Positions 18,641 through 59,093 are shown, counted from the first letter of the stretch. The stretch: DNA of 64,000 nucleotides from Candidatus Hydrothermia bacterium (GCA_049719805.1 JBNARF010000002.1:15805-79804); one strand, 5' to 3'. Numbers and translations: made by a program. Notes: generated by a model from the sequence alone, not told the origin.

Positions 18641-19930
18641 ATGCGGTTGGGGTTTTTAAAGTGGATCCTTTTAGTCAAAGGGTTTTGTAGCAGACTACCC
18701 TTTAGGGTGTACAAATTTCTTCAGATTTTTCTGCATGTTCAATGGAACGGAGATCCAAGTAGCTCTGGTTTTTTGGAAAAGCGTTTTGTATTTACAATTG
18801 GAGAAGTTTATAATAGAAGTGAGATGTCAGATTTTTTGGCTTTGATTCGCAGGTATTTAAAGTTATTTTTTATTGTGTATGTGGTTGGCTTTTTAGTGGC
18901 CCTCTTGCTGTATTTTGTTTTGCCCCGCAAGTACAAGGCCACAGCTGAGGTAATGCCATCCCTTGACCCGGAGACTTTTGCAGTGATCGGCTCCTCTCTC
19001 GCAAATTTTAATCCGCTTCTTGGCCTAATGGTTTCACCTGTGGACATTTATGCAAGGATAGCCCAGTCCAGAGGAGTTCTTTATCCAGTGATAGATTCCC
19101 TCGATCTGAGATCTAAGTTCAAGACAAAATCGTATATTAAAACTTATAGGAAGTTACTTAAATCCATTGAAATAAAGACTTACACCGAGGGTATCCTGGA
19201 ATTATCTTACGAAGACAAAGATAAGTATTTTGCCACAAATCTCGTGAATTTAGTCGTCAGAGAGCTGGATAGAGCAAATAAAGAATTAATAATGACCAAA
19301 GGGAAAGCCTTAAGGGAGTTTCTGGAAAAGAGAATGGCAGAGGAGGAAGCTTCTATTAACTCTCTAAGGGACACCCTGGAACAGTTGCAGAAACGTTACG
19401 GAACCCTGGACCTTGAGGCAGAATATGCTGAGTGGGTTAAAGCTTATTACGAAATGCTTAAAAATTACCTGATGAGCAGGACAGAGTATGATTATTTAAA
19501 GCAAATATATTCGGAAAGTTCTCCCCTGCTTATTTTAAAGGAGAAAGAGTTGAAAGTATACGATGAACAGCTCCGAGGATTTTTAAATGAAATTTCTTCT
19601 GAAGAAGCTGGCGGTAATGTGAGGAGGGTCTTTAATGTTCCTTATACAAAATTGCCGACTTATGCCAGGCAGTATATGGAGCTGAAGGTAAAATTAAGTG
19701 CTCATGAAGAGGTCTATAAATTTTTGTTTACAAAATATGAAGAGGCAAAGATTCTGGAAAAGCGAGATACACCGACTTTTACAGTTCTTCGTTATGCAGA
19801 AGTCCCCGATTATAAGAGCTATCCCAAGGGGACCCATTTAGTCTTATTGTTTTTCTTCCTGAGCACCGTCATTAACATTGTAATTTTATTGGTAAAAGAA
19901 GGTGAATTTCTAAGTAGGGCTGTTAATTAG
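18641..19930 (+). CDS. polysaccharide co-polymerase / chain-length determinant (Wzz-like, PCP family)
   Basis: TM1 followed by PRKYKATAEVMP (PCP signature P-x-Y-x-A). Long coiled-coil periplasmic region. C-terminal TM2. True start probably internal (e.g. M at ~18821). Confidence 0.6.
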   Translation: MRLGFLKWILLVKGFCSRLPFRVYKFLQIFLHVQWNGDPSSSGFLEKRFVFTIGEVYNRSEMSDFLALIRRYLKLFFIVYVVGFLVALLLYFVLPRKYKATAEVMPSLDPETFAVIGSSLANFNPLLGLMVSPVDIYARIAQSRGVLYPVIDSLDLRSKFKTKSYIKTYRKLLKSIEIKTYTEGILELSYEDKDKYFATNLVNLVVRELDRANKELIMTKGKALREFLEKRMAEEEASINSLRDTLEQLQKRYGTLDLEAEYAEWVKAYYEMLKNYLMSRTEYDYLKQIYSESSPLLILKEKELKVYDEQLRGFLNEISSEEAGGNVRRVFNVPYTKLPTYARQYMELKVKLSAHEEVYKFLFTKYEEAKILEKRDTPTFTVLRYAEVPDYKSYPKGTHLVLLFFFLSTVINIVILLVKEGEFLSRAVN

Positions 19931-19945
19931 CGCAGTAAATTTTTT

Positions 19946-20902
19946 ATGAACTATTCGGCAGTAATCCCGACTTATCGGAGAAAGGATGACCTGATAAAGT
20001 GTGTCGAAAACTTACTGGCTCAGACCATAAAACCTTCAGAGGTTATTATAAGTGGTGTTTCTACCGATGAGGAAACAAAAGAAGCTTTCAAAATTTTAAA
20101 AGGTAAATATCCCGAATTCAATATAAAGCTCGTTCTGAGTGATCGAAGAGGTATTTCGGTGGGAAGAAACAAGGGGTTAGAGGCAGCTTCTTGTGAGTTT
20201 GTTTTGATGGTGGATGATGATGTGGAACTTCCACCTGATTTCGCAGAAAAAGCCCTGGAGATTTTAGTTAAAGAAGGAGTTTATATTTTAACTGGTATTG
20301 AGCAGAGGAAGATGGTTGTTCATAGACTTCAAAATTTATTTAGAAAGATTTTTTTCCTGGATTATTATGAGCCCAATAAACAGTTAGTTTTACAGAGTGG
20401 TGCCAAGGTTATTCCTTCAGTGGTTAACACAGATATCAAGGCGCAATATCTGGGATCACATGTGTGGATGATGAGGCGTTTTTTAATAGAAAAGGTAAAA
20501 TTTGATGAAAGAATGGCCCTTTATTCTCACAGAGAAGACCAGGACTTTTCTTATACTGTTTTTAAAATATATGGTCCCGTTCTTCTTATAACCCCGAGGT
20601 TGACTTTTATTCACCATCATTCTGCAGGGGGCAGAGTCAACTTTGCTCAGTTCCAGCATATATATGTATACAATTTGACTTTAAACTATGTAAAGCACTT
20701 TTTAAGGGTAAAGGGTACAAAGATTATCTTTGCCTGGTCCATGATGGGTTTAATTCTGCAAAGTTTGCATCATTCGTTAAAAAATTCCCAAATATCTATT
20801 TTTGTTGAGACCTTTAATGCGGTGTTCCGTGTTATTAATAATTGGAGGTCCATCGCTCTAAACAAATTTGACAAAATTTATGGGATTTTCCATAAAAAAT
20901 AG
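19946..20902 (+). CDS. family 2 glycosyltransferase
   Basis: SAVIPTYRR...FVLMVDDDVELPPDF DxD motif. 318 aa. Confidence 0.8.
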   Translation: MNYSAVIPTYRRKDDLIKCVENLLAQTIKPSEVIISGVSTDEETKEAFKILKGKYPEFNIKLVLSDRRGISVGRNKGLEAASCEFVLMVDDDVELPPDFAEKALEILVKEGVYILTGIEQRKMVVHRLQNLFRKIFFLDYYEPNKQLVLQSGAKVIPSVVNTDIKAQYLGSHVWMMRRFLIEKVKFDERMALYSHREDQDFSYTVFKIYGPVLLITPRLTFIHHHSAGGRVNFAQFQHIYVYNLTLNYVKHFLRVKGTKIIFAWSMMGLILQSLHHSLKNSQISIFVETFNAVFRVINNWRSIALNKFDKIYGIFHKK

Positions 20903-23479: not shown

Positions 23480-24939
23480 ATATTTTTCTTTTGTAAAAAA
23501 CCTTCGAGTTTTCTTAGAGTTTCCTTTACGCCTTTGTTAAGTAGGTCAAAATTTAAAATACAAATTAAAAGCATCCCGAGTAATGAGGTGATTATAGCTG
23601 TGGATTTTATCGTTATAAAAGTGTTCACCAGAAAGCAGGCAAGGAGAATGAAAAGAGTTAAAAATAACTTTCCAAGGGGATATTTCACGGGAAAGAGTTT
23701 CATTGAGGCAAAAGTTTCTATTGAAAATAAAACTAAAAAAGATAGGGCGGAAGAAAGGGCGGCACCTCTTGCACCCAACTCCCTGGTGAAAATAAAGTTC
23801 AGTCCTATGTTTACCAGAAGAGTTACACCATCGGAGATTATAAACCAGTAAGTTTTTTTCATGAAATTGATGCCTTTGTTGGTCACTGCGAGAATCGCCA
23901 GTATTACAGGAGACATGAGCAGGAGAGGCAGGATATTCGAAGCGGGTCTATATTCCTTTGCTAATACGAGGAAAATGACATCTTTAAGAGCAATCACTAA
24001 GAGTGCGAAAATCGCCATGGAGAAGGTTATTATTTCTGCAGTCTGCACAAAAAGTTTTGTGTTTTCTCTATCCTTTTCGTAAGTCTCAAAGGCCACGGGA
24101 ATCCAGAAATTCTGAAAGCCAGAATATATAAGGTGCATGATGTAGCTTATCCTGAAGGCGGCTGAAAAAAGACCCAGTTCAGAAAAAGTAGAGTAGGCCC
24201 TTAAAAAAATCCGTGAAGTCCAGGTCTGGAACCACCAGAGAAGGGCACTGGGTAAAAGGGGAAGGGAGTATGCAAGAATTTTTTTGAGTAACTCTTTGTT
24301 GATCCTGACAGGTAAAATATTCGAATGTTCGAAAACGAATCCCAATAGAAAAGAAAGGGTGTTGGATACAATCTGGCCCCAGATTACTGCATAAAAGCTT
24401 CTACCGAAAGTTATTGCATAAAGTATGGTTGTGATTACGTTAAATAGGGCTTGAGCGACAAAAACCAGTGAATAGAGAAATCCCTTTTTTTGCATCCTTA
24501 TTGCAGTTAAATTAAAAACCTGAAGTAGCCCCGTAAGGAGGGATAAAGTTAGAAGTATACCCATGGGATGTTCCGCTTCTCCAGTGACTATGGTAGAGAC
24601 CCGGGCATTGAAGAAGAGCAATATTAGTGTTATTAACACCAGGATCTGGAACGGAAAGTAGAGGGATGACCAGAGAAGGTCATTTCTTTTATCTTCTTCT
24701 ATCTCGTGGAAGAATCGGGTAAAAGCCTGATCATTACCACTTAGGATCAAGGTTAGAAGGAGGGAATAAATAGTGGAGTACATATTAGCTTTTCCAAATT
24801 CCGCTGGTGAGATAAGGTAAGTTATAATTGGAATTGAGATTACGTTGATTACAGCTTGGATCCACACCCCCAGAGAAAAGGAAAAGAACAGTTTCAAGGC
24901 ACTTTTTATGTTTAATCTTTGAAAAGTGGAAGCGGTCAT
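23476..24939 (-). CDS. wzx: polysaccharide biosynthesis flippase (Wzx, MOP superfamily)
   Basis: 487 aa, 12-14 TM helices with the typical Wzx layout. Convergent with the GT4 gene, 4-nt overlap. Confidence 0.7.
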   Translation of the reverse strand: MTASTFQRLNIKSALKLFFSFSLGVWIQAVINVISIPIITYLISPAEFGKANMYSTIYSLLLTLILSGNDQAFTRFFHEIEEDKRNDLLWSSLYFPFQILVLITLILLFFNARVSTIVTGEAEHPMGILLTLSLLTGLLQVFNLTAIRMQKKGFLYSLVFVAQALFNVITTILYAITFGRSFYAVIWGQIVSNTLSFLLGFVFEHSNILPVRINKELLKKILAYSLPLLPSALLWWFQTWTSRIFLRAYSTFSELGLFSAAFRISYIMHLIYSGFQNFWIPVAFETYEKDRENTKLFVQTAEIITFSMAIFALLVIALKDVIFLVLAKEYRPASNILPLLLMSPVILAILAVTNKGINFMKKTYWFIISDGVTLLVNIGLNFIFTRELGARGAALSSALSFLVLFSIETFASMKLFPVKYPLGKLFLTLFILLACFLVNTFITIKSTAIITSLLGMLLICILNFDLLNKGVKETLRKLEGFLQKKNI

Positions 24940-25006: not shown

Positions 25007-28000
25007 GTGACTAACGAGTTTGTGAATTTTCATGGAAGATACCCTATTATTTTTTCCATGATAAAAAGTCGCTTCCTAAGGTTGTGTCCCAATTGCGGTG
25101 GTGATATTACCGATGAAAGGCTTTTTAAAGGTCTTCCCTGTCCGCGCTGTTTGCCAGATGAAGGGTTACCTTTAAAGGATGGTCTAAAATCTGGTGAGAT
25201 TTACGAATTTCTCAAGGTGCTTAATGAAGTAACATCGTGGTCTACCCATTTCGAGGCGCACATGAAATCATCCCCCTGGGGACTTCAGACTGCCTGGGCG
25301 AAGAGGGTTTTCCTTGGAAGATCCTTCGCATTACTTGCCCCTACCGGTGTGGGAAAAACTTCTTTCGGGGTCTCCATCGCCTCTTTCTTTTCCCTTAAAA
25401 ACTTTAGATCGTACATCATAGTCCCGACAATAATTCTTGTAAACCAGATCACGGATAAGCTACTTCAATTTGGCGTTCGAGAAGAAGAAATTCTTTCCTT
25501 TGGAGGAGAGGAATCCAGAAGTGAGTTGAAAGCAAAGAGAGATAGACTCAAATCGAGAGACTTCAGAATACTCGTTTCTACCTCAATGTTTTTATATCGA
25601 AACTATAATGATATTCCCCCGGACTTCGATTTCGTTTTTGTTGACGACGTGGATTCTTTCCTCAAAACAGCCAGAAATATAGATAAAGCATTGATAATTC
25701 TGGGCTTTGATTCGAAGGATGTTCAAGAGACTCTTCAATATATACTATTTAAAAGAAAGCCAAAGAAAACCAGTGATGACTTTGAAAAGTTAAGAGAATG
25801 GGAGGAGAAGATTAAAGATATTTCTCGAAAACGCAGGGGAGTACTTGTGGTATCCTCAGCAACATCAAGTCCTAGGTCCTTTCGTGTGGAACTCTTTAGA
25901 GAGCTTCTCGGCTTTGAAGTGGGTACCCCCACTTTTTATCTCAGAAACGTAGAGGACTTGTACGATCGTTCAGGTGAAAAGAGCCTATTTGAGTGGATAA
26001 AGACCCTGGGCAAGGGTGGACTTGTTTTCCTTTCGGCTGACCAGGGAAAAGAAAGGGTTAAGGAAGTGGTGGCGGAACTTGAAAGCAAGGGGATAAGGGC
26101 AGTTTCTTATGAAGATATCGATGATCTTGCCATCCGGGATTTTGAAGATGGTAAAATTGACGTTTTTGTAGGAATTGCCTCCTATCGAAATCCCCTCTCA
26201 AGAGGGTTTGATTTACCTCATGTAATAAGGTACGCAATATTCCTTGGCGTCCCTAAAATAGTTATTTCTCTGAAGATTGAGACCAATCCTACACATCTTC
26301 TCTGGGCACTATCTTCCATACGGAAACATCTTGCCAGAACCAATCCCGCGAAACTTAAAACCATAGATATTTACATGCAGAGGTTGAAAAAATTGGAAAA
26401 TATTGATCTAAAGAAATTGCCTGAAAATTCTTTGGTAAGGTCGAGATTTGAATCTTTGAGAAGGGAGGTACTAGAATTACTTAACTCTGCTGATGTTGTG
26501 GAATTTATGAAGGGTTCCTCTGAAATTAACTTAAGGCAAACTCCTGAGGGATTGGAAATGATAGTATCGGATGCCACCGGTTATCTACAGGCCAGCGGAA
26601 GAACGTCCAGAATGTATGGTGGGGGAATAACCAAGGGATTAAGCCTGATACTTGTGGATGATGAGGCAGCTTTCAGTCACCTCGTGAAAAAAGTGAAGTG
26701 GTTCAATGACGAAATCGAGTTTAAGGACGTTTCTAATGTGGATTTGCGTTCGATATTGGAGACCATTGATAGGGATAGGCAGACTTTAAAGGCGTATAAA
26801 GAGGGCAAAATAAGCGTAGAGAAGAAAGATCTACTAAAGCCCGTACTAATAATTGTGGAGTCACCCAATAAGGCTCGAACTATTGCTCGATTTTTCGGGA
26901 AACCCATAAGAAGGAAAGTGGGGACTCATGATCTCCTTGAGACATCGGTGGACGACAAATATCTTATAATTACTGCCTCACTGGGGCATGTTCTGGATTT
27001 AAATAAAGAGGTAGGATATCACGGTACTTTAATAGAAGATAAAGTAGTTCCCGTTTATGAACCCATAGAAGGGAAGGATGAAATAATTTCAAGTATTAGA
27101 AAAATGGCTATGGAATGTGAAGAGGTGCTCGTGGCTACTGACCCGGACACTGAGGGAGAGAAGATAGCATGGGATTTGTATGGACTGTTAAAGAGTTTTG
27201 CTCCGAATATTTGGAGAATGGAGTTTCATGAGGTGACCCGGAAGGCTATTCTGAACGGGCTTAGAAATCCCAGAGATTTAAATTTTGATCTTGTTAAAGC
27301 TTAGATTCTGCGGAGAATTTCAGATCGATGGGTGGGTTTTGAGTTTTCGGAATATTTACAGAGGAGATTCGGTAAAAAGAGTTTATCAGCAGGAAGGGTT
27401 CAGACCCCCGTTTTAGGATGGATAATTGAAAGGGAGAAAAAATACTACAGAAAACTCTACAAAATAGAGATTTATATGGGGGTAGGTGAACGCAAACTAA
27501 AGGTGGATTTTACATTTTCTGATGAAGACGAAGCCAGGGAGTTCTATGAAAATCTGGAAACCATTGAGATTTCAAAAATTGAAGGTAAAATTGTAGAAGT
27601 TAACCCTCTTCCACCTTACAGAACAGATACAATGCTGCAGGATGCATCTAATAAACTGAAATTTTCCCTTCCCAAAACCATGGAGCTGGCTCAGGATCTT
27701 TTTGAGATGGGTTACATTACATATCACAGGACAGATTCCGTAAGGGTTTCAGACGCGGGCATTAAAATTGCGAGAGAAATAATTGAGGAGGATTTTGGTA
27801 AAGAGTACTTTGTGCAGAGGAGCTGGGGTGAAGGGGGTGCTCACGAGTGTATTAGACCTGCCAGGGCTCTGGATCCTGAGGACCTGAAATCCCTTGTATT
27901 TACCGGTGAAACCGAGTACCTGAGCTATGATCACCTCGCACTTTATGAAATGATTTTTAAGAGGTTTATTGCCAGTGAGATGAGACCTGTTAAGGTGAGG

Positions 28001-28507
28001 GAACAACATGTGGAAGTGAAAGCACTTAATCTGAAGCAGGAAATAAAATTAAGGGTAGAAATTCTGGAAGATGGCTGGAATAAGGTTATTCCTTTGCATC
28101 TTGATCCAGAGCTCCCGTCGTCAATCAACGTTACAAGAAGCAAAAGATTTAGAACTGTTCCTGAGGCTTATCCATATACTCAGGGAGAACTGGTCTCAGA
28201 AATGAAAGAAAAGGGTATAGGAAGGCCTTCAACTTACGCCACCATCATTGAAAAACTTTTCGAAAGGTCCTATGTCATTGAAAAAAATGGATTTTTATTT
28301 CCCACTCATCTTGGAAAAAGAGTTTACGCGTTTTTGAATGCCAGAGAAAAAATCAGGGCCTTTGTCTCGGAGGAATTCACCAGAATTCTGGAGAAACTTA
28401 TGGACGAAGTTGAGGAAGGTAAAAAAGATTATCAAGAGATACTTCTGGATATTCTGGATAAGATGAGAGAAATCAGGAAAGAGCAGGGTTTTGCCAGTTT
28501 TGTATAG
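25007..28507 (+). CDS. rgy: reverse gyrase (helicase-like + topoisomerase IA), interrupted by a single in-frame TAG at 27302-27304
   Basis: N-terminal Zn finger CPNCGG...CPRC and Walker A APTGVGKT. TOPRIM IIVESPNKARTIARFFG, DPDTEGE, SAGRVQTP and active-site GYITYHRTDS. Total 1166 codons in one frame. The TAG sits where topo IA has AQQARR (here A*ILRR). True start probably the ATG at 25058 (MIKSRFLRLCPNCGG). Confidence 0.85.
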
Positions 28508-51492: not shown

Positions 51493-52915
51493 TTTTAAAC
51501 CAGAGCATCTTACAGCGTTTATAAGGAACGGAGTTTTGGATACGCTTTTCGATGAACTTCTCTCCGGATTCTGGAATTTCTATCCCGATGTTCAGTTTGA
51601 AATTGTTAAAAGATTTGAGAATTTTAGTAAAAAGGACGACCTGGCTTTACTTCTTGTTAAGCACTTTGAGATTCCCTTTGAGGACGCCCGAAAACTAATT
51701 AACGGCCCGCGGTTTTATTTTAAAATACCAGCGTTTTTCGATGATATTCTGCAATTTGTAGATATTATTTTGATACCTGAAACCTCAAGAATTATGACCA
51801 ATTTCCTGGAGATAACAGACTATTTAGAGATCATCGGGAAATGCTGTGGGAAAAAGTTTTTTATATTTTTTGATAAATTCTTTGACGACGAGAGTTTTAT
51901 GCTGCAGGTAGCCACAGTATTGAGGCTAGGTAATGTACCTGACCGCTACTGGTTTTTGGGTGCGATTGATGGTAAGTGCAATATTTTGCCCATTAAGAAC
52001 CTTGACTTGAAATTGCCTCTGATGGAAATTCAGGGTAAGAGAGGGATTTCTTACCCTCTGGCAAAGAATGTGAGGGACATTGAAAGATGGTTAAAAATTG
52101 AGACACACCACATACCGATTTTGATTATTGAAACTAATAATGGAGATGCAGGCGATCTTTTTGCGAATTTTCTGGGTATTTTAGGTCCTGAGGCGGAAGC
52201 CTCCTTAGGTGCTTTAAAAGCACTCTTCGGAATAGACGAAGATAATCTAATATTTGTTTTCCCGGGATTTGATGGAAGAGAAGAATGGTGGGAAAAATTT
52301 TCTGGTTTTTGTGCTTTTCTCAGGAAGGTGGAGGGCATCACCAGGGGAAGAATGCATTTTCACTTCGGGATTAAGAGCTCTCCCGGACTGGCTATGGCTT
52401 TAGGTATTTTATTTGGCAGCATGATACCCTTCTCGATTTATGATTTGGAAAAGCTTAAATTGTGTAGTGTGGTGAGCAATGTGCGGGAGTTAAAGACCCG
52501 GGTTCCTGACTATAAAATTAGGCATAAATTCGAATTGAAAAATCAAAGTGATGCTATTGTATATTTTAGACACAGGGAAGCTTCGGATTTACCCATAAAG
52601 AAGATTCAAGAAAGGCTGGATCTTATGGATGCGTCTATTGTTTCCATATACTTGAGGGGCAAATTATCACAGTGTAGGGTTAAGTATGTGGAGGTGGTAA
52701 AAGGTGTAACGTCTTTTATTCAGGACCTGCGCAAAGTTCATCCCTTTGGGAGATTCCACTTTTTCCCCAATATTCCCGCAACTTTATCATTTCTTCTGGG
52801 TGTATCTCTGGGGCACTACATGGAAGGAGTTATTTACAATTTTAACAGGTTCACGGACTCCTGGGGAAGGGTGTTGACCTTTTCAGATCTCAAGAGGTTG
52901 AGGGAAAGGTCTTAA
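51476..52915 (+). CDS. hypothetical protein, paralog of 57633-59093; triplicated Rossmann-like beta/Gly-loop/helix motif (candidate CARF/SAVED/SLOG-like sensor fusion)
   Basis: 479 aa. Shares EDARK, SFML..., ERWL...H.P... motifs with the 57633 protein. Also shares MHFHFGIKSSPGLAMALGILFGSMIPFSIY (cf. YFHLAIKGPIPLGFALGIIFGSMLPFTIY) and FHFFPNIPATLSFLLGVSLGHY (cf. FHFFFSSPVSLAFLLGVVFGHY). Confidence 0.6.
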   Translation: MFRFIDFKPEHLTAFIRNGVLDTLFDELLSGFWNFYPDVQFEIVKRFENFSKKDDLALLLVKHFEIPFEDARKLINGPRFYFKIPAFFDDILQFVDIILIPETSRIMTNFLEITDYLEIIGKCCGKKFFIFFDKFFDDESFMLQVATVLRLGNVPDRYWFLGAIDGKCNILPIKNLDLKLPLMEIQGKRGISYPLAKNVRDIERWLKIETHHIPILIIETNNGDAGDLFANFLGILGPEAEASLGALKALFGIDEDNLIFVFPGFDGREEWWEKFSGFCAFLRKVEGITRGRMHFHFGIKSSPGLAMALGILFGSMIPFSIYDLEKLKLCSVVSNVRELKTRVPDYKIRHKFELKNQSDAIVYFRHREASDLPIKKIQERLDLMDASIVSIYLRGKLSQCRVKYVEVVKGVTSFIQDLRKVHPFGRFHFFPNIPATLSFLLGVSLGHYMEGVIYNFNRFTDSWGRVLTFSDLKRLRERS

Positions 52916-54809
52916 AATGCGGGATCTAAAAATTTTATTTATGCTGGGAGAAATAAAAAGGCCGGTTTAACAAAATAGCGGAAGTACTTCCTTAATTTGC
53001 CCAATTAATTAAGCAAAGAAAAAGAGGTGTAATATACTACTTTCTTGAATGTGTTTTGCCGGGGTGGGGCTTCAGTTAAATAGGGTGCAAGTTTATGAAT
53101 AATAGGCAGTATAGATTTTAGTAAGTACGCTCTTGGGGTTAAAAAGTCTGGGAGAACCGTATCTTAAGGGGTAAGGACAAAATTTTTCCCTTACAGAAAA
53201 ATAAATGTTTAGACTGAAGTTCAAAATCAATGCCAGAATCATTAGAATCAAATTCTGATCCAGAACAATAATCCCTATACTGAAGCTATAAAACTTCTCG
53301 TCCTCGTAACGGGATGCCGAATTATAAATGCAAAATCAAGCCATTTCCGCTAAAAGTACTTTCAAAAATTCAGAGCCTGTGGATAACCTCGCTGAATTTG
53401 TAAGAAAAGGTATCTAACAAAAGCCGTCGAGCAGGTTTTACCTTGTTAACTTCTTGCAGGTTATACCATCCTTTCAAACCTTACCATTACAGTGGATAAC
53501 GAGCGAAACAGGTGGAGAGGAAAAATATGGGGCAAGTTGTGTAAAAAGTGACTCTGGGTGAACATGTTTTGTTTCTGGAAACTTAGTTAGAGCGAAAATC
53601 GAGCTTTTTAAGTTTACGGATAACCAAAACACCAGGGAAAACGTTGAAGGTGGTGCAATTGTGTAATCTTAACTGGGGACCAGTTAATGACAATGAGCAA
53701 AAACTTTATTGATTCTGGAGTTATCTTCTCGGACTTTGCCGCCCGGGAACAATTTATCGTTTAGATTGGTGTCCAGTTCTTAAGTTCTAACAGGTAGGAA
53801 TGCGAACAATAGCAAGACACAGATCGCTGTTTAATAGATAGTAAACAAGTTTGGCCTGTGAAAGAAGATTTACCGGAAGCAGGAACGGGATCGTTTTGAT
53901 GAATACGTTACTGTTCTTAAAAATGTGAGGTATTTTTATGGCGATCAGACTTACCCGCGGCATTTCGGAAATCTAACGAAAATAGTTGAGGGGTAGAAAA
54001 TCAAAGAGGGTTAAGGAGTAGTGGGAGTTGGAAAACAACAGGTTTAACAAGGAGTATCTGGTTTTATGAAATCGGAATCAAGATGCTTTTCAGGGAATAT
54101 AGTTTGTGTTATAAGTATCGTTTTTACTCCTTACTGAACAATGTGCTTATGATGTCTGGTGGGACATAGACTTTGTGTAAAGTTGAGACCTTGCGGCAAT
54201 ATTTTTTTTAAATAAAGATTTGATGGGACGTGACGCTGGTTGTATCAGATTTACCAAAACTTCAAAGTATTCTTAGTTTTTGAAGATAAAATTATGCGGG
54301 TGATAAAGATCGATATTGTGCATAACATGGGCACTTCTTCTGGGTTTACCACGTCTCAGGCTGAAAGGAGTGAAAGCCATTTATTTTATCAAAATAACGG
54401 ATATACAGGCTCGGGTGGATCTTGGTACTGCCAAAATTTGCCTTTAAACGGGTTCTAAGGGCTTTTATTATGGAATATCCGTGGATATTGCCTGATTTTA
54501 GGATTTTTGCCATTTTAATAAAGCTTTATGCCTTAGTTATTTTGATGATTGACTAACCGATGGATGCACGAAAGTTAATGCATAATAAATCCGGAAAGTA
54601 ATAGAAAGCCATGAACCGCGGGGCACTGTTATGATAAATATTGTTTACCAGACTTTGAGTTTCTTTGCTTCATTTTCTTATACTGCTTTAAACGCTATTT
54701 ACTCATGTCCAATATTTTTTCTGCCCCGGGAAGGCTTTAATTCTACGAAAAATTAAGCCTTCCTTGACTCGGACTTTTTTGAACATTAACATTTTTATAA
54801 GTTCTGTTT

Positions 54810-55562
54810 ATGAGACTCAAGCTTACTTTCAAACCCGTTTCTGATTATATAGCCCTACCCATTCACTATAATCACATGGTTCAGGCTTTCATTTATTCGT
54901 CCCTAGAGCAAGACATCGCAAACTGGCTTCACGAAAAGGGGTTTGAATACGGTCCCGGGAAATTTAAACTCTTCACTTTTTCCTGGATATTCGGGAAGAA
55001 AAGGATAGAGAGTGGTCGATTTATTTTCTACGATAGATTCTGATTCTTTATATCAAGTCCTGTGGAACAAATGCTTGAGTCTTTTGTTAAAAAATTTTTT
55101 CAAAAAAGCAAAATAGAATTTGGAGGTCAGGAGTGTCTCCTGGAAAGCGTAAAAGTGGAGCCTGCAAGAGAACTGAAGTCTTCCCTTGTTATTCGCATGA
55201 TTTCTCCGATTACCGTTTATTCCATTTTTGGGAAGGATGGGAGGAAGAAAACTTACTACTATTCACCCTTTGAAAAGGATTTTGAACGTTTAATATTAGA
55301 AAATTTTGAATAAAAGGTTGAGGCTTTTTATGGAAAAGGCGATTATCCGGAGTTGAAAGATGCCCACCTGCAACCTGTAGATGTAAAAGGTGAGGATTTT
55401 CACATTGTGAAATTTAAGGGATTCATGATAAAGGGTTGGTCTGGTATTTATAAGTTGGACCTTCCGGAGCCTTACCTTTCTATAGCTTATTATGCTGGTA
55501 TTGGCAGCAAAAATTCTCAGGGTTTTGGAATGTGGGACGTTTTAAAGGAGCTTAAGAAATGA
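54810..55562 (+). pseudogene. cas6: cas6 (CRISPR repeat endoribonuclease) interrupted by two in-frame stops (TGA 55041-55043; TAA 55311-55313), no frameshift
   Basis: Three consecutive ORFs in the same frame. N-terminal MRLKLTFKPVSDYIALPIHYNHMVQAFIYS is a Cas6 ferredoxin-like start. C-terminal G-rich loop AGIGSKNSQGFGMWDV. Combined length 251 codons, the size of Cas6. Confidence 0.65.
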
Positions 55563-55619
55563 ATGTCAAATTTTTAAATTTTTGGGGTTATATGGTAAAT
55601 GAAGAGGGAGTTCTAAATT

Positions 55620-55910
55620 ATGGGTATAAGGGATCGGGAATTAAGCGAAAGGGAAAGGATAGCCCTGGGTGCATTATTACATGATATTGGAAAAGTGGTG
55701 CAAAGAGCCAGCGATAATCCAAGCGCAAAAACCCATCAGGAATTTGGCGAAAAGTGGATAGAAAGTCATTTGCCTGCTCCCCTGGGCGGTGAGTTGAAGT
55801 TTTTCTCTAAATATCATCATTTCAATCCAGAATCGCATCCAGAGCTGGATGTTAGTATACCGTGAAGGAACGATTTAATACTTGTTTTGCATGCCGCTGA
55901 TTGTACTTAA
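55620..55910 (+). pseudogene. cas10/csm1 N-terminal HD-domain fragment (in-frame TGA at 55863-55865; rest of gene missing)
   Basis: LGALLHDIGKVVQRA...KTHQEFGEKWIESHL...KYHH resembles the Csm1/Cas10 HD N-terminus (LLHDIGK + QRA). After the TGA the same frame continues as RNDLILVLHAADCT (HD motif V-like). Only ~96 codons, against ~750 for Cas10. Confidence 0.5.
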
Positions 55911-55936
55911 CTTTTTCAATTTTAAGAGGCAGTGTC

Positions 55937-57301
55937 ATGAAAATTCTTATTGGGATAATTGGAGATTTCTATAAATACCAGGTTTTTAAGTACACGAATA
56001 ATGGACAAGAAATAGACGCAAAATGCTCGCTTTTCGCACTCATGAGAATGTTAAATCCAGATTTAACTTTGTTGGTAGTTCTTGATAGTCTGGTTGACAT
56101 TCTGAATAAAAAGTACCCTGAGCTAAAATCCTCTAATTCGTACATTGAGTTAAAAGGCAGATTAGTGAAGGTAGTCCGCCAGGGGCTCCTATCGGAAAAA
56201 ATTGTCACCCAAGAAGAGTTGAATGAATTTAAGGTGAAATTTTTAATTATACCTTCGGTTGGTTCTTACGGAGATTTGCGTTTTAAAGGTGAAATTACCG
56301 ACTTTTACTACGAATTGTACTATGGAACTGGTCTTAAATTCGCTGGATTGCTTGCGGGCATAAAGAACTTTGAGGAAGATGCGGAAATATTTTTTGACGT
56401 TTCTCTGGGTGCCAATTACACGAATGTTATACTTTATAAAGTTTTGAGGGAGTTGGCAGCTATATTTTCTCTTTCCGGAAGGAGAGTAAAACTAAGAATT
56501 TTAAACACTGAACCAATTATCCCTTACAGAGAAAACTCGACGTCAGCTTTAAATGAGATCGAAGCAGCCGAGTTCCGTAAATCCCTGACATTTTCTACTA
56601 GAAAACTCAAAGGTTCTGAGTTACCCCTTAAAAATATTTCAAAGGAGTATGTGAAAGCTAAAGAAAACTATAAAGAAGAGTTAAATTCCCGTGGATTGGA
56701 CTTGAGGTTAGGGAATAGGGATGTTTCGTGTTTTCTAAGTAGCGTAAAGAACGGTATTCCTCTTGGTGTATATTACTTTTTCCCGGATATTTCACTCTTG
56801 AGTAAAGTTGCCAGATTGTCATACAAGTTTTATTTGAAAAGCGTTAAGTTTCACAGGGATGAAAGCTTGATCATCGAAAGGGGACTAAAGTTGACACCTT
56901 GCTTTAAGACTTACGTTCAGGCTATCTTAGTGGCTCAGGCCTTGAGTTCTTTGGGGGTGGAAAAAAGAGAAAGTGTTTTGAGTAGTGAAATAGAATCTCT
57001 GTCGGAAAAGCTATATGAAAGGTGCAAGGTTATTGGGGATAGAATTAAGCAGGAAATTTCGCGTCTTAATAAAGAAATAAGAAACTACCCTAAAGCCAGA
57101 TGGAAAGTGATGGGAGAGGAAAAGAGCAGAGGTAATACGGTTCGAAATTTCTTCGCTCACGTCGGAATTGTCAGAAATTTGACGGAGATCTGGGTAGAAG
57201 ATGAGAAGTCCAAAGTTTGGAAAGTTAGATTTAGAAAAACGGAGGAGAGTATTAAGCAGATTGCAAACTTCCTCCTGAATGCTGCCGATGAGGCGGAGTG
57301 A
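55937..57301 (+). CDS. CARF-HEPN family protein (Csx1/Csm6-like cOA-activated RNase)
   Basis: ORF track starts at 55901 (TTG). The ATG at 55937 has an AAGAGG RBS. Begins MKILIGIIGD (CARF-like first strand). C-terminal HEPN motif VRNFFAHVG matches RNxxAHxG (R-X4-H). About 455 aa. Confidence 0.6.
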   Translation: MKILIGIIGDFYKYQVFKYTNNGQEIDAKCSLFALMRMLNPDLTLLVVLDSLVDILNKKYPELKSSNSYIELKGRLVKVVRQGLLSEKIVTQEELNEFKVKFLIIPSVGSYGDLRFKGEITDFYYELYYGTGLKFAGLLAGIKNFEEDAEIFFDVSLGANYTNVILYKVLRELAAIFSLSGRRVKLRILNTEPIIPYRENSTSALNEIEAAEFRKSLTFSTRKLKGSELPLKNISKEYVKAKENYKEELNSRGLDLRLGNRDVSCFLSSVKNGIPLGVYYFFPDISLLSKVARLSYKFYLKSVKFHRDESLIIERGLKLTPCFKTYVQAILVAQALSSLGVEKRESVLSSEIESLSEKLYERCKVIGDRIKQEISRLNKEIRNYPKARWKVMGEEKSRGNTVRNFFAHVGIVRNLTEIWVEDEKSKVWKVRFRKTEESIKQIANFLLNAADEAE

Positions 57302-57632: not shown

Positions 57633-59093
57633 ATGAAGCACTGGTATGAGTTAGATACGAATCAGTTTATTGAGCACCTCGAATCGGGTGGGCTGAATGA
57701 TTATCTTGATGAAATCATAGAAAACTTCCCTAAATTTGCCGATAAACCTGAAGTGCAATTTGAGCTGATAAGGTATATAAAAGAAAAAAGGCCTCCAGTT
57801 TCTCTCACCACCTGGGTAAAAGGTCTGGGCATTTCTGAGGAGGATGCTCGCAAAGTCTATAATAATCCCTATCGGATAATGAACTATGTGGTGATTCACG
57901 GAGAAAGCGGCGAAATTTCTCAGATGTTAATTATAAAGAATACAGGCAGTCTCATTACGAATCTTGAAAGTGTGAAAAAAGATCTGGAAGTGATCACATC
58001 TTATGTGAAATCAAATTTTGCCGTTTTTTTCAAAACTCCTTTCTATGGACAGAGTTTTATGTTACCCTTAACGGTGGGGCTACTTGTGGTTCATATTCCA
58101 TCGAATCTAGTGTTCACCGGCAAGGTAGATGAAAAGGGAAAGGTTTACGATGTGGAGGGTGTATCCATTAAAAGAAAAGTCGCACAAAACTCAGGCTATA
58201 AATTGATAGATCCCTCTATTGTCCCTGATGTTTCCTTTATTAAACGGTGGCTAGATGCAGAGATTTACCATGTGCCACTGTGCGTTACATATTCGAGTGG
58301 TGAGCCCGCTACTACGGATTTTGAGAGGCTTTGTGATTCCATTTCAGGATTCGATAGAGAAACACTTTTGGTGCTCAAGGAATTTATGGACATCGATACC
58401 TCACTTCTTATTGTATCTACGGGAACTATGGAGAGTAGAGAGGACTGGATTAATTCCCTTAACAAATTTCGTAGAGCTATTGCAGTCATAAACAAAAAAC
58501 TCCAGGATCGTGTATACTTTCACCTGGCAATAAAAGGTCCCATTCCTCTGGGGTTTGCTCTTGGTATTATTTTTGGAAGTATGTTACCCTTTACTATATA
58601 CCATTTCCAGAATAATCAATATTTTCCCATAGAGGTCTCAGATGTAAGATATTTGAAGGGGCGAGTCAAGGAACAAAACTACGATCCTTTAGTGGTTAGC
58701 TTTATAGAAGGAAATGGTGGTGATGTGGCAGTGGTTATCTCCATGTCCCACCATGAACCCCTTGCCACTGCAAAAAGTTTTTTAATTCAGAGATTTGGAG
58801 CGACACCCTCCATTCTCCTCCTTGAACATCCTCTGAAGGGTGATGTGCCTGTTGAAGAGTATTTTGAGGTTGCAAGGAAAATGGCAAGTGTTATTCAGGA
58901 TGTTCGGGGAAAAAGATCCGTTGATAAATTTCACTTTTTCTTCTCATCGCCCGTAAGCCTGGCGTTTCTCCTTGGTGTTGTTTTTGGGCATTACGGCTCT
59001 GCGGAAATTTATCATTACGATAATAAGAGGCAGACTTACATAAATGTTATAAGCCTTGATGAATTGAAGAAAATAAGAGAGAATTCATATTGA
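57633..59093 (+). CDS. hypothetical protein, paralog of 51476-52915 (same triplicated motif), immediately downstream of csx1-like gene
   Basis: 486 aa. GGAGG RBS. Motifs as listed for the 51476 protein. Conserved C-terminus ...ISLDELKKIRENSY vs ...TFSDLKRLRERS. Confidence 0.6.
   Translation: MKHWYELDTNQFIEHLESGGLNDYLDEIIENFPKFADKPEVQFELIRYIKEKRPPVSLTTWVKGLGISEEDARKVYNNPYRIMNYVVIHGESGEISQMLIIKNTGSLITNLESVKKDLEVITSYVKSNFAVFFKTPFYGQSFMLPLTVGLLVVHIPSNLVFTGKVDEKGKVYDVEGVSIKRKVAQNSGYKLIDPSIVPDVSFIKRWLDAEIYHVPLCVTYSSGEPATTDFERLCDSISGFDRETLLVLKEFMDIDTSLLIVSTGTMESREDWINSLNKFRRAIAVINKKLQDRVYFHLAIKGPIPLGFALGIIFGSMLPFTIYHFQNNQYFPIEVSDVRYLKGRVKEQNYDPLVVSFIEGNGGDVAVVISMSHHEPLATAKSFLIQRFGATPSILLLEHPLKGDVPVEEYFEVARKMASVIQDVRGKRSVDKFHFFFSSPVSLAFLLGVVFGHYGSAEIYHYDNKRQTYINVISLDELKKIRENSY

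What the first reader, a model, noticed from the sequence alone, without database searches (positions are those of the whole stretch)
27290..27345. Reverse gyrase interrupted by a single in-frame amber codon at a universally conserved glutamine
The two ORFs 25007-27304 and 27332-28507 are in the same frame (offset 2325 = 3x775). The translation across the junction reads ...LVKA*ILRRISDRWVGFEFS, aligning to the topo IA motif ...AQQARRxxDRxVGF.... The TAG replaces the first Gln (CAG to TAG is a single transition), upstream of the active-site tyrosine (GYITYHRTDS). Either rgy is a very recent pseudogene, which matters for inferring growth temperature, or there is a sequencing error, or amber suppression or readthrough occurs.
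Basis: partly seen in the sequence, partly recalled or inferred. Interest (0 to 1): 0.6.

Follow-up and report, generated by a model that had tools for sequence, protein, structure and literature searches.

The report
One-base stop in reverse gyrase gene
In one metagenome-assembled genome of a heat-loving WOR-3 bacterium, a single C-to-T change puts a stop codon in an otherwise perfect reverse gyrase gene; near-identical sister genomes still read CAG (Gln) there, so it is an ordinary, very recent strain-level knockout or an assembly error, not recoding.

Summary
TAG at 27302-27304 interrupts a complete reverse gyrase (rgy, 25058-28507) at codon 749. That codon is Gln in 130/130 homologous proteins and 101/101 homologous loci. 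The window comes from a 'Candidatus Hydrothermia bacterium' (WOR-3) MAG; NCBI annotates the gene as two CDS. Three independent assemblies of the same population, 99.97-99.99% identical, all read CAG. One of them differs from the window's 3450-nt rgy at this base only. Across 59.9 kb the window and a sister MAG differ by 9 SNPs and no indels, so the TAG is one of a few strain-level variants. rgy has no other lesion. Its dN/dS against a 94%-identical genome is 0.11 on both sides of the stop. TAG is a working stop here: it ends rgy itself, and TAG stops are conserved in four orthologous gene pairs. No tRNA, readthrough structure or usable ribosome-binding site for the downstream piece was found. 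Best reading: a very recent, private loss-of-function allele. A consensus error is the main rival, and only reads can separate them. Suppression and an evolved split enzyme are rejected. Strain-level rgy decay is already known (Thermus thermophilus HB27 versus HB8). Low interest.

The parts
25058..28507 (+). Complete reverse gyrase reading frame (1149 codons plus terminator TAG at 28505-28507), interrupted once at codon 749
   Evidence: Translation; Pfam zf_Rg, DEAD, Toprim and Topoisom_bac; 95-100% identical to intact 1149-aa proteins P0001 and P0123-P0125.
25058..27304 (+). Upstream ORF: 748 aa with zinc finger (25085-25150), helicase motifs I (25337-25360), II (25643-25654), III (25856-25864) and VI (26588-26611), Toprim Glu (26855-26875) and DxD (27140-27160). 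This is NCBI protein MGB9916686.1
   Evidence: Exact match to cluster member P0121; motif coordinates.
27302..27304 (+). In-frame amber codon TAG at codon 749. The T at 27302 is derived and private to this MAG; the ancestral codon is CAG (Gln)
   Evidence: L001, L002, L003 and L004 all read CAG. L003 differs from the window at this base only within the 3450-nt gene.
27290..27340 (+). Conserved type IA topoisomerase motif LVKA[Q->*]ILRRISDRWVGF, just after the Toprim domain
   Evidence: Aligned to 1GKU and 4DDU; motif logo counts.
27305..28507 (+). Downstream remainder (400 codons, Topoisom_bac) with active-site motif GYITYHRTDS at 27710-27739. NCBI calls a 396-aa CDS from ATT 27317 (MGB9916687.1); the longest ORF with a canonical start begins at GTG 27332. 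Neither start has a Shine-Dalgarno sequence at the spacing this genome normally uses
   Evidence: Pfam E = 2e-88; P0122 sequence. RBS survey: SD motifs start 9-14 nt upstream of real starts, whereas the only GGAG here (27312-27315) starts 20 nt before the GTG and 5 nt before the ATT.
27212..27212 (+). Older derived substitution in rgy, R719W (CGG to TGG), shared by the window and the two sister NCBI MAGs but absent from L004 and L001
   Evidence: The column is K/R in 114 of 126 distant homologues and never W.

Best explanation
A single, very recent C-to-T transition at 27302 converts the invariant Gln749 codon (CAG) of a functional, selectively maintained reverse gyrase gene into TAG. It is private to this one metagenome-assembled genome. 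TAG is read as a stop in this organism. The allele would therefore encode a 748-aa fragment (zinc finger, helicase-like module, Toprim) that lacks the DNA-binding RR..DR helix, the catalytic tyrosine and the rest of the topoisomerase fold. That makes it a loss-of-function allele. It is a strain-level or sample-level polymorphism in a near-clonal population, not an established pseudogene and not a species trait. Shown: the base change, its polarity, that it is private, that the rest of the gene is intact, and that TAG is used as a stop. Inferred: that the variant is real rather than a consensus error, that the truncated product is inactive, and that loss is tolerated because reverse gyrase is dispensable below hyperthermophilic temperatures.
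For: (1) The sisters L002, L003 and L004 are 99.97-99.99% identical over 7.7-23.4 kb and all read CAG. L003 differs from the window's rgy at 27302 only. (2) The outgroup L001 (94.3% nt identity) also reads CAG, so T is the derived state. (3) The 59.9-kb census against GCA_049701535.1 finds 9 SNPs and 0 indels, 8 of 9 transitions, 6 nonsynonymous to 3 synonymous. This looks like genuine microdiversity in high-accuracy assemblies. The window has other private variants: 23822 S373T and 52866 G464E. The real private SNP density is about 1e-4 per base; I take this to be well above the consensus error rate of a good assembly (my expectation, not measured here). (4) Of 319 columns at least 95% conserved in distant homologues, the only violation private to the window is the stop. 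(5) dN/dS against L001 is 0.114 overall, 0.111 upstream and 0.121 downstream of the stop, similar to neighbouring genes at 0.04-0.19. (6) TAG is a real stop: 7 of the 36 stop-to-stop ORFs of at least 200 codons end in TAG, rgy's own terminator is TAG, and the Wzz-like, GT2, rgy and HPPK orthologues end in TAG in both the window and L001. (7) The same window holds a bona fide nonsense-decayed gene, cas6, with in-frame TGA and TAA, so nonsense decay does occur in this lineage. (8) Precedents from the literature: T. thermophilus HB27 has a decayed rgy while HB8 has an intact one (PMC1274311). A T. kodakarensis rgy deletion is viable (PMC8185306). Reverse gyrase occurs in moderate thermophiles growing at 40-60 C (PMC6878951). 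A Hydrothermia population lives in a 55 C reactor where novel SNVs emerged and rose in frequency (PMC13388668).
Against: No reads were available, so a consensus or base-call error at this one position cannot be excluded. The TAG allele is seen on one contig only. It hits an invariant residue of a gene under strong purifying selection, which is the kind of variant selection should remove quickly and which makes errors relatively more likely. The habitat and temperature of this particular MAG are unknown. The link to the 55 C reactor study is not shown: searches for the accessions found nothing.
Confidence: 0.75

Rival explanations
1. Sequencing, assembly or consensus artefact. The organism really has CAG, and the T at 27302 is a miscalled base or a minority allele promoted to the consensus by the assembler.
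For: The TAG allele occurs on a single contig in the 15-billion-protein collection. Three other assemblies of the same population read CAG. The change hits an invariant residue of a constrained gene, where real variants are expected to be rare.
Against: The assemblies are very clean: 0 indels in 59.9 kb and only 9 SNPs, with a transition-dominated, biologically typical spectrum. The window carries other private SNPs in unremarkable places (23822, 52866), which argues for a genuinely distinct strain or sample consensus. A single-base substitution error in a non-repetitive, non-homopolymer context is uncommon in a polished consensus.
Confidence: 0.18
2. Functional two-subunit reverse gyrase. The 748-aa fragment and a re-initiated C-terminal fragment of about 391-396 aa assemble into an active enzyme, as in the naturally split Methanopyrus kandleri enzyme.
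For: M. kandleri reverse gyrase is split inside the topoisomerase domain and N. equitans between the two modules, and both form active heterodimers (PMC4117796; PMC8185306). The break here lies at a domain boundary, just after Toprim. An in-frame GTG lies 28 nt after the stop. By my recollection, not tested here, M. kandleri RgyA is about 358 aa, close in size to this C-terminal piece.
Against: The split is private to one MAG and differs from intact sisters by one base, so nothing has had time to adapt. No Shine-Dalgarno sequence lies at the spacing used by this genome's genes. Any restart at ATT 27317 or GTG 27332 drops part or all of the conserved QILRRISDRW segment. None of 101 homologous loci is split here.
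Confidence: 0.04
3. Recoding. The TAG is decoded as an amino acid by a suppressor tRNA(CUA), pyrrolysine machinery, reassignment of TAG, or programmed readthrough, giving full-length enzyme.
For: The reading frame and conserved motif continue perfectly across the TAG. Basal near-cognate misreading of UAG can insert Gln (general knowledge), which would restore trace amounts of wild-type protein.
Against: TAG ends 7 of the 36 stop-to-stop ORFs of at least 200 codons, including rgy itself, and TAG stops are conserved between the window and L001 in four orthologous pairs. No other conserved gene in the window has an in-frame TAG. The other in-frame stops seen, in cas6, are TGA and TAA. There is no tRNA in the window or in 117 kb of sister loci, and no Rfam hit. 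The downstream RNA fold is unremarkable, z = -1.19. All relatives have CAG with identical flanks, so no dedicated signal can have evolved.
Confidence: 0.02

Closest known systems
Strain-level reverse gyrase decay in Thermus thermophilus (HB27 pseudogene versus HB8 intact gene; Omelchenko et al. 2005, PMC1274311)
   Same: A bacterial thermophile below the hyperthermophilic range in which one strain carries an inactivated rgy while a close relative keeps an intact copy.
   Different: In HB27 the gene is truncated and decayed and sits on a megaplasmid. Here the lesion is a single nonsense base in a chromosomal-context gene that is otherwise identical to its intact allele.
Adjacent broken reverse gyrase ORFs flagged as 'pseudogenization and/or sequencing errors' (Aeropyrum camini WP_082398367/8; Catchpole and Forterre 2019, PMC6878951)
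   Same: Two adjacent ORFs that together make one reverse gyrase, in a database genome, with the same unresolved choice between a real lesion and an error.
   Different: A. camini has a one-base frameshift. Here the lesion is an in-frame nonsense substitution, and near-clonal sister assemblies show the ancestral state directly.
Naturally split reverse gyrases (Methanopyrus kandleri RgyA/RgyB; Nanoarchaeum equitans NEQ434/NEQ318)
   Same: Reverse gyrase encoded as two polypeptides. In M. kandleri the break lies inside the topoisomerase domain, as here.
   Different: Those splits are fixed, ancient, encoded by separately expressed genes and biochemically active. This one is private to one MAG, has no proper translation start for the second piece, and would lose conserved motif residues.
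Canonical single-chain reverse gyrase (A. fulgidus 1GKU, T. maritima 4DDU)
   Same: Same domain order and all catalytic motifs. E = 1e-186 to 3e-193 against the solved structures.
   Different: Interrupted at the invariant Gln that begins the QxxRRxxDRW(I/V)GF helix.

Membership tests
Reverse gyrase (helicase-like module fused to type IA topoisomerase) | N-terminal reverse-gyrase zinc finger | tested here: met
   PF17915 zf_Rg, E = 5e-18; CPNCGG and CPRC at 25085-25150.
Reverse gyrase (helicase-like module fused to type IA topoisomerase) | SF2 helicase-like module with motifs I, II, III and VI | tested here: met
   PF00270 and PF04851; APTGVGKT, DDVD, SAT and QASGRTSR all present.
Reverse gyrase (helicase-like module fused to type IA topoisomerase) | Toprim domain plus type IA catalytic domain with the active-site tyrosine motif | tested here: met
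   PF01751 E = 9e-21; PF01131 E = 2e-88; VESPNKA, DPDTEGE and GYITYHRTDS present.
Reverse gyrase (helicase-like module fused to type IA topoisomerase) | Both modules encoded in one uninterrupted reading frame | tested here: not met
   TAG at codon 749 in this MAG. The feature is met in sisters L001-L004.
Naturally split (two-subunit) reverse gyrase | Split conserved among relatives, i.e. a fixed gene architecture | tested here: not met
   Four close relatives and 101 homologous loci are unsplit at this site.
Naturally split (two-subunit) reverse gyrase | Second subunit has its own start codon with a ribosome-binding site and retains the conserved motifs | tested here: not met
   No SD at the genome-typical position (motif starting 9-14 nt upstream). 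Restart at ATT 27317 or GTG 27332 removes part or all of QILRRISDRW.
Naturally split (two-subunit) reverse gyrase | The two polypeptides associate and positively supercoil DNA | not testable with these tools
   Needs biochemistry.
Recoded amber codon (pyrrolysine, suppressor tRNA or TAG reassignment) | TAG rare or absent as a terminator, and in-frame TAGs in several conserved genes | tested here: not met
   7 of the 36 stop-to-stop ORFs of at least 200 codons end in TAG. TAG stops are conserved in L001 orthologues. rgy is the only conserved gene with an internal TAG.
Recoded amber codon (pyrrolysine, suppressor tRNA or TAG reassignment) | tRNA with anticodon CUA and/or pylTSBCD genes in the genome | tested here: inconclusive
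   None in the 64-kb window or in 117 kb of sister loci. The rest of the roughly 1.7-Mb genome could not be scanned.
Recoded amber codon (pyrrolysine, suppressor tRNA or TAG reassignment) | The TAG is conserved at the site in relatives | tested here: not met
   CAG in L001-L004; CAG or CAA in 101 of 101 loci.
Established pseudogene | Several disabling lesions and/or relaxed constraint (dN/dS approaching 1) | tested here: not met
   One lesion only. 318 of the 319 highly conserved columns show nothing private to the window; 310 match the consensus outright and the other 8 departures are shared with the intact sisters. dN/dS is 0.11 on both sides of the stop. Contrast cas6 at 54810-55562, which has two stops.
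Established pseudogene | Lesion fixed in the population or species | tested here: not met
   Private to one of four near-clonal assemblies.

The most novel reading that the evidence does not exclude
The TAG is real and was the majority allele in its sample. That would make it a reverse-gyrase-null strain of a WOR-3/Hydrothermia bacterium rising to dominance in a moderately thermophilic community. It would follow an earlier radical substitution (R719W) shared by the three NCBI MAGs. This would catch, at single-base resolution, the first step of reverse gyrase loss in a bacterium, and would offer a natural experiment on whether the enzyme is dispensable (or its loss even favoured) at about 55-60 C.
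Probability: 0.25. Interest if true: 0.4.

Novelty: new member of a known kind. Interest (0 to 1): 0.15.

Why it matters
Reverse gyrase presence is widely used as a genomic marker of (hyper)thermophily. A gene caller or presence/absence screen would score this MAG as having a broken or duplicated rgy, and NCBI lists two 'reverse gyrase' CDS for it. The comparison shows that the species keeps an intact, strongly constrained rgy and that the break is one private base, so no conclusion about the lineage's growth temperature should be drawn from it. If the reads confirm the allele, it is a small but clean example of a segregating loss-of-function variant in a thermoadaptation gene. It would be modest support for the view that reverse gyrase is dispensable in moderate thermophiles. 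Otherwise it is a routine caveat about MAG quality.

Tried and rejected
(1) Genome-wide TAG reassignment or pyrrolysine. Rejected from stop-codon usage and conserved TAG terminators, and because no tRNA or Rfam hit was found. (2) Readthrough-promoting RNA structure. The 105 nt from the TAG fold no better than shuffles, z = -1.19. (3) An evolved split gene. Rejected because the sisters are intact and no RBS is present. (4) An old pseudogene. Rejected by the conservation census and dN/dS. (5) Enrichment of SNPs in rgy as a sign of relaxed selection. In the first 23 kb, 3 of 5 SNPs fell in rgy and all were nonsynonymous. After extending to 59.9 kb the pairwise count was 2 of 9 against 0.52 expected, Poisson P about 0.1, which is not significant. 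I dropped it as evidence and keep it only as a hint. (6) Exact-pattern scans of metagenome and genome collections for either allele found nothing. Protein-guided scans found no relative closer than about 67%, so this species is absent from both collections; those loci served only for the conservation count. (7) look-up of encoding contigs with window DNA references failed six times, even for a gene whose DNA is identical in L002. The workaround was listing of cluster members followed by a look-up by protein id. (8) Tracing the source study of the MAGs (JBNATJ, JBNARY, GCA_049701535, GCA_049722865, DRR082460, GCA_017880035) in the paper library gave 0 hits. The 55 C reactor paper with 'Hydrothermia sp. 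BIN34' is context only, not a shown source. (9) The exact split point of M. kandleri RgyA/RgyB could not be retrieved, so the positional similarity rests on my memory of subunit sizes. (10) A CRISPR array in the ORF-poor stretch at 52.9-55.9 kb: none found.

Full report
**Observation.** Positions 27290-27340 read LVKA*ILRRISDRWVGF, with TAG at 27302-27304. The two ORFs 25007-27304 and 27332-28507 are in one frame. The true start is most likely ATG 25058: the 748-aa product from that ATG matches an NCBI protein exactly. The upstream part carries the reverse-gyrase zinc finger, DEAD/ResIII helicase and Toprim domains. The downstream part carries the type IA topoisomerase domain at E = 2e-88. Against solved structures the joined protein matches A. 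fulgidus (1GKU, E = 3e-193) and T. maritima (4DDU, E = 1.5e-186) reverse gyrases end to end. The TAG falls on the Gln of LVKAQ(V/I)VRR..DRWIGF. All catalytic motifs are present: helicase motifs I, II, III and VI, the Toprim Glu and DxD, and the active-site GYITYHRTDS.

**Conservation of the site.** The Gln is invariant in 130 of 130 full-length homologues from the protein search. It is also invariant in 101 of 101 homologous loci fetched from genome and metagenome collections (58 CAG, 43 CAA). None of these has a stop at this position. The 'universally conserved glutamine' claim therefore holds for everything sampled.

**Whose genome this is.** Exact look-up shows the window belongs to an NCBI MAG named 'Candidatus Hydrothermia bacterium' (WOR-3 lineage), on a contig of 580,236 bp. 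NCBI annotates rgy as two CDS: MGB9916686.1 (748 aa) and MGB9916687.1 (396 aa, starting at ATT 27317). The same 90% cluster holds four intact 1149-aa versions.

**The decisive comparison.** I fetched the DNA of those four.
- L003 (GCA_049722865.1) is identical to the window's 3450-nt rgy except for C instead of T at 27302.
- L002 (GCA_049701535.1) and L004 (a Logan contig from run DRR082460) each differ at that base plus one other.
- L001 (GCA_017880035.1, 94.3% nt identity) also reads CAG.

Over the whole overlaps the window is 99.97-99.99% identical to L002, L003 and L004, with no indels. Polarised on L001, the T at 27302 is derived and private to this MAG.

**Background variation.** I used cluster look-ups to obtain protein ids for sister variants and extended the comparison with GCA_049701535.1 to 59,899 bp.
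- There are 9 SNPs and 0 indels.
- 8 of the 9 are transitions.
- 6 are nonsynonymous (including the stop) and 3 synonymous.
- Eight of ten other surveyed proteins are identical in all three NCBI MAGs.
- The window has at least two more private changes: S373T in a polysaccharide-synthesis protein at 23822, and G464E in a SAVED protein at 52866.

The MAGs therefore represent one near-clonal population with real microdiversity of about 1.5e-4 per base, and the TAG is one of a handful of private variants. About 1.6% of possible transitions and 6.1% of possible transversions in the window's genes create a stop. That gives roughly 0.1-0.2 nonsense SNPs expected per window of this size, so one is only mildly unusual. 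An early impression that SNPs pile up in rgy (3 of 5 in the first 23 kb, all nonsynonymous) did not hold in the larger census: 2 of 9 against 0.52 expected, P about 0.1.

**State of the gene.**
- Among 319 alignment columns at least 95% conserved in distant homologues, the stop is the only departure private to the window. The other eight departures are shared with the intact sisters.
- dN/dS against L001 is 0.114 overall, 0.111 upstream and 0.121 downstream of the stop. Neighbouring genes range from 0.04 to 0.19.

rgy has thus been under purifying selection essentially up to the present, and nothing has decayed since the stop arose. A true older pseudogene lies in the same window for contrast. 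cas6 at 54810-55562 has in-frame TGA and TAA (Cas_Cas6_C E = 8e-34 on the masked translation), and its DNA is identical in the sister MAG.

**Is TAG read through?** The evidence says no.
- TAG terminates 7 of the 36 stop-to-stop ORFs of at least 200 codons, including rgy itself at 28505.
- The Wzz-like, GT2, rgy and HPPK orthologues end in TAG in both the window and L001.
- There is no tRNA or Rfam match in the window, and no tRNA in 117 kb of sister DNA.
- The RNA downstream of the TAG folds no better than shuffled controls, z = -1.19.
- Because the flanks are identical to the CAG alleles, no dedicated recoding signal can exist.

At most, basal near-cognate misreading would yield traces of full-length enzyme (general knowledge).

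**Is it a working split enzyme?** Natural two-subunit reverse gyrases exist. M. kandleri is split inside the topoisomerase domain and N. equitans between the modules (PMC4117796; PMC8185306). The break here lies at the Toprim/topoisomerase boundary. However, the split is private to one MAG. This genome's genes use an AGGAGG-type Shine-Dalgarno that starts 9-14 nt upstream of the start codon. The only GGAG near the junction starts 20 nt before GTG 27332 and 5 nt before ATT 27317. Either restart would also delete part or all of the conserved QILRRISDRW segment. I rate this as unlikely.

**Mechanism.**
- Shown: a one-base C-to-T change, derived and private, in an intact and constrained gene, in an organism that uses TAG as a stop.
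- Inferred: translation ends after residue 748, giving a helicase-Toprim fragment without the catalytic tyrosine, which is a null allele.
- Inferred: the variant is real. The private SNP density of about 1e-4 per base, in indel-free assemblies, should be well above the consensus error rate of a good assembly; that is my expectation, not something measured here.
- Inferred: loss is tolerated because reverse gyrase is dispensable below hyperthermophilic temperatures. A T. kodakarensis deletion is viable, and reverse gyrase occurs in bacteria growing at 40-60 C (PMC6878951).

A Hydrothermia population has been described in a 55 C biomethanation reactor in which novel SNVs emerged and rose in frequency (PMC13388668). 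I could not link this MAG to that study. The main rival is a consensus error, at about 0.18, and only the reads can settle it.

**Comparison with what is known.** The closest precedents are:
- T. thermophilus HB27 (decayed rgy) versus HB8 (intact) (PMC1274311).
- The adjacent broken reverse gyrase ORFs of Aeropyrum camini, which Catchpole and Forterre set aside as 'pseudogenization and/or sequencing errors'.

This case is the same kind of thing, caught at its earliest possible stage and in a new lineage (WOR-3).

**Verdict.** This is a new member of a known kind and of low interest (0.15). The species should still be scored as having reverse gyrase.

Noticed in passing
window 52916-57301 (cas6 remnant 54810-55562; HD fragment 55620-55865): Decayed type III CRISPR-Cas remnant. 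A cas6 pseudogene has two in-frame stops (TGA 55041-55043, TAA 55311-55313; Cas_Cas6_C E = 8e-34 on the masked translation). An 81-aa HD-domain fragment follows. About 1.9 kb (52916-54800) shows no + strand coding potential. No CRISPR array was found. The region is flanked by two SAVED-domain proteins (51476-52915, 57633-59093) and a Csx1 CARF-HEPN protein (55901-57301). The DNA is identical in the sister MAG (L108).
   Followed up: partly
window 29269-59000 versus L001 14085-17100: About 30 kb is present in the window and its near-clonal sisters but replaced by about 3 kb in the 94%-identical genome GCA_017880035.1. The block carries three giant putative surface proteins (1421, 2359 and 942 aa; SdrD_B, DUF11/CLIPPER, OmpA and NPCBM_assoc hits) plus the defence island. 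Only about 1 kb (window 45406-46480) has a counterpart in L001.
   Followed up: partly
window 27212: R719W in rgy (CGG to TGG) is a derived, radical substitution shared by the window and the two sister NCBI MAGs but absent from the Logan contig L004 and from L001. The column is K/R in 114 of 126 distant homologues and never W. Together with A374T in L002 and the stop, all three SNPs seen in rgy within the near-clonal set change the protein. The numbers are too small to show relaxed selection.
   Followed up: partly
window 27297-27302: The C-to-T change creates the palindrome AAGCTT (a HindIII-type site) that is absent from the CAG alleles (AAGCTC). Probably coincidence. I did not check for a cognate restriction-modification system.
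   Followed up: no
window 18641-19930 and 19946-20902: Another pair of same-frame neighbouring ORFs separated by TAG. These are distinct genes (a Wzz-like chain-length determinant and a family 2 glycosyltransferase), and their TAG terminators are conserved in L001. Same-frame adjacency across a TAG occurs by chance and is not evidence of recoding.
   Followed up: yes
window 51476-52915 (SNPs at 52388 and 52866): The SAVED-domain defence protein carries two of the nine SNPs that separate the window from the sister MAG. One of them is a window-private G464E. This may be in line with reports of SNV enrichment in defence genes, but n = 2.
   Followed up: no
window 27317 (NCBI CDS MGB9916687.1): NCBI's annotation starts the downstream 'reverse gyrase' CDS at an ATT codon (product MSDRWVGF...). 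That is an unusual start choice with no ribosome-binding site at normal spacing, and probably an annotation convenience rather than a real start.
   Followed up: partly
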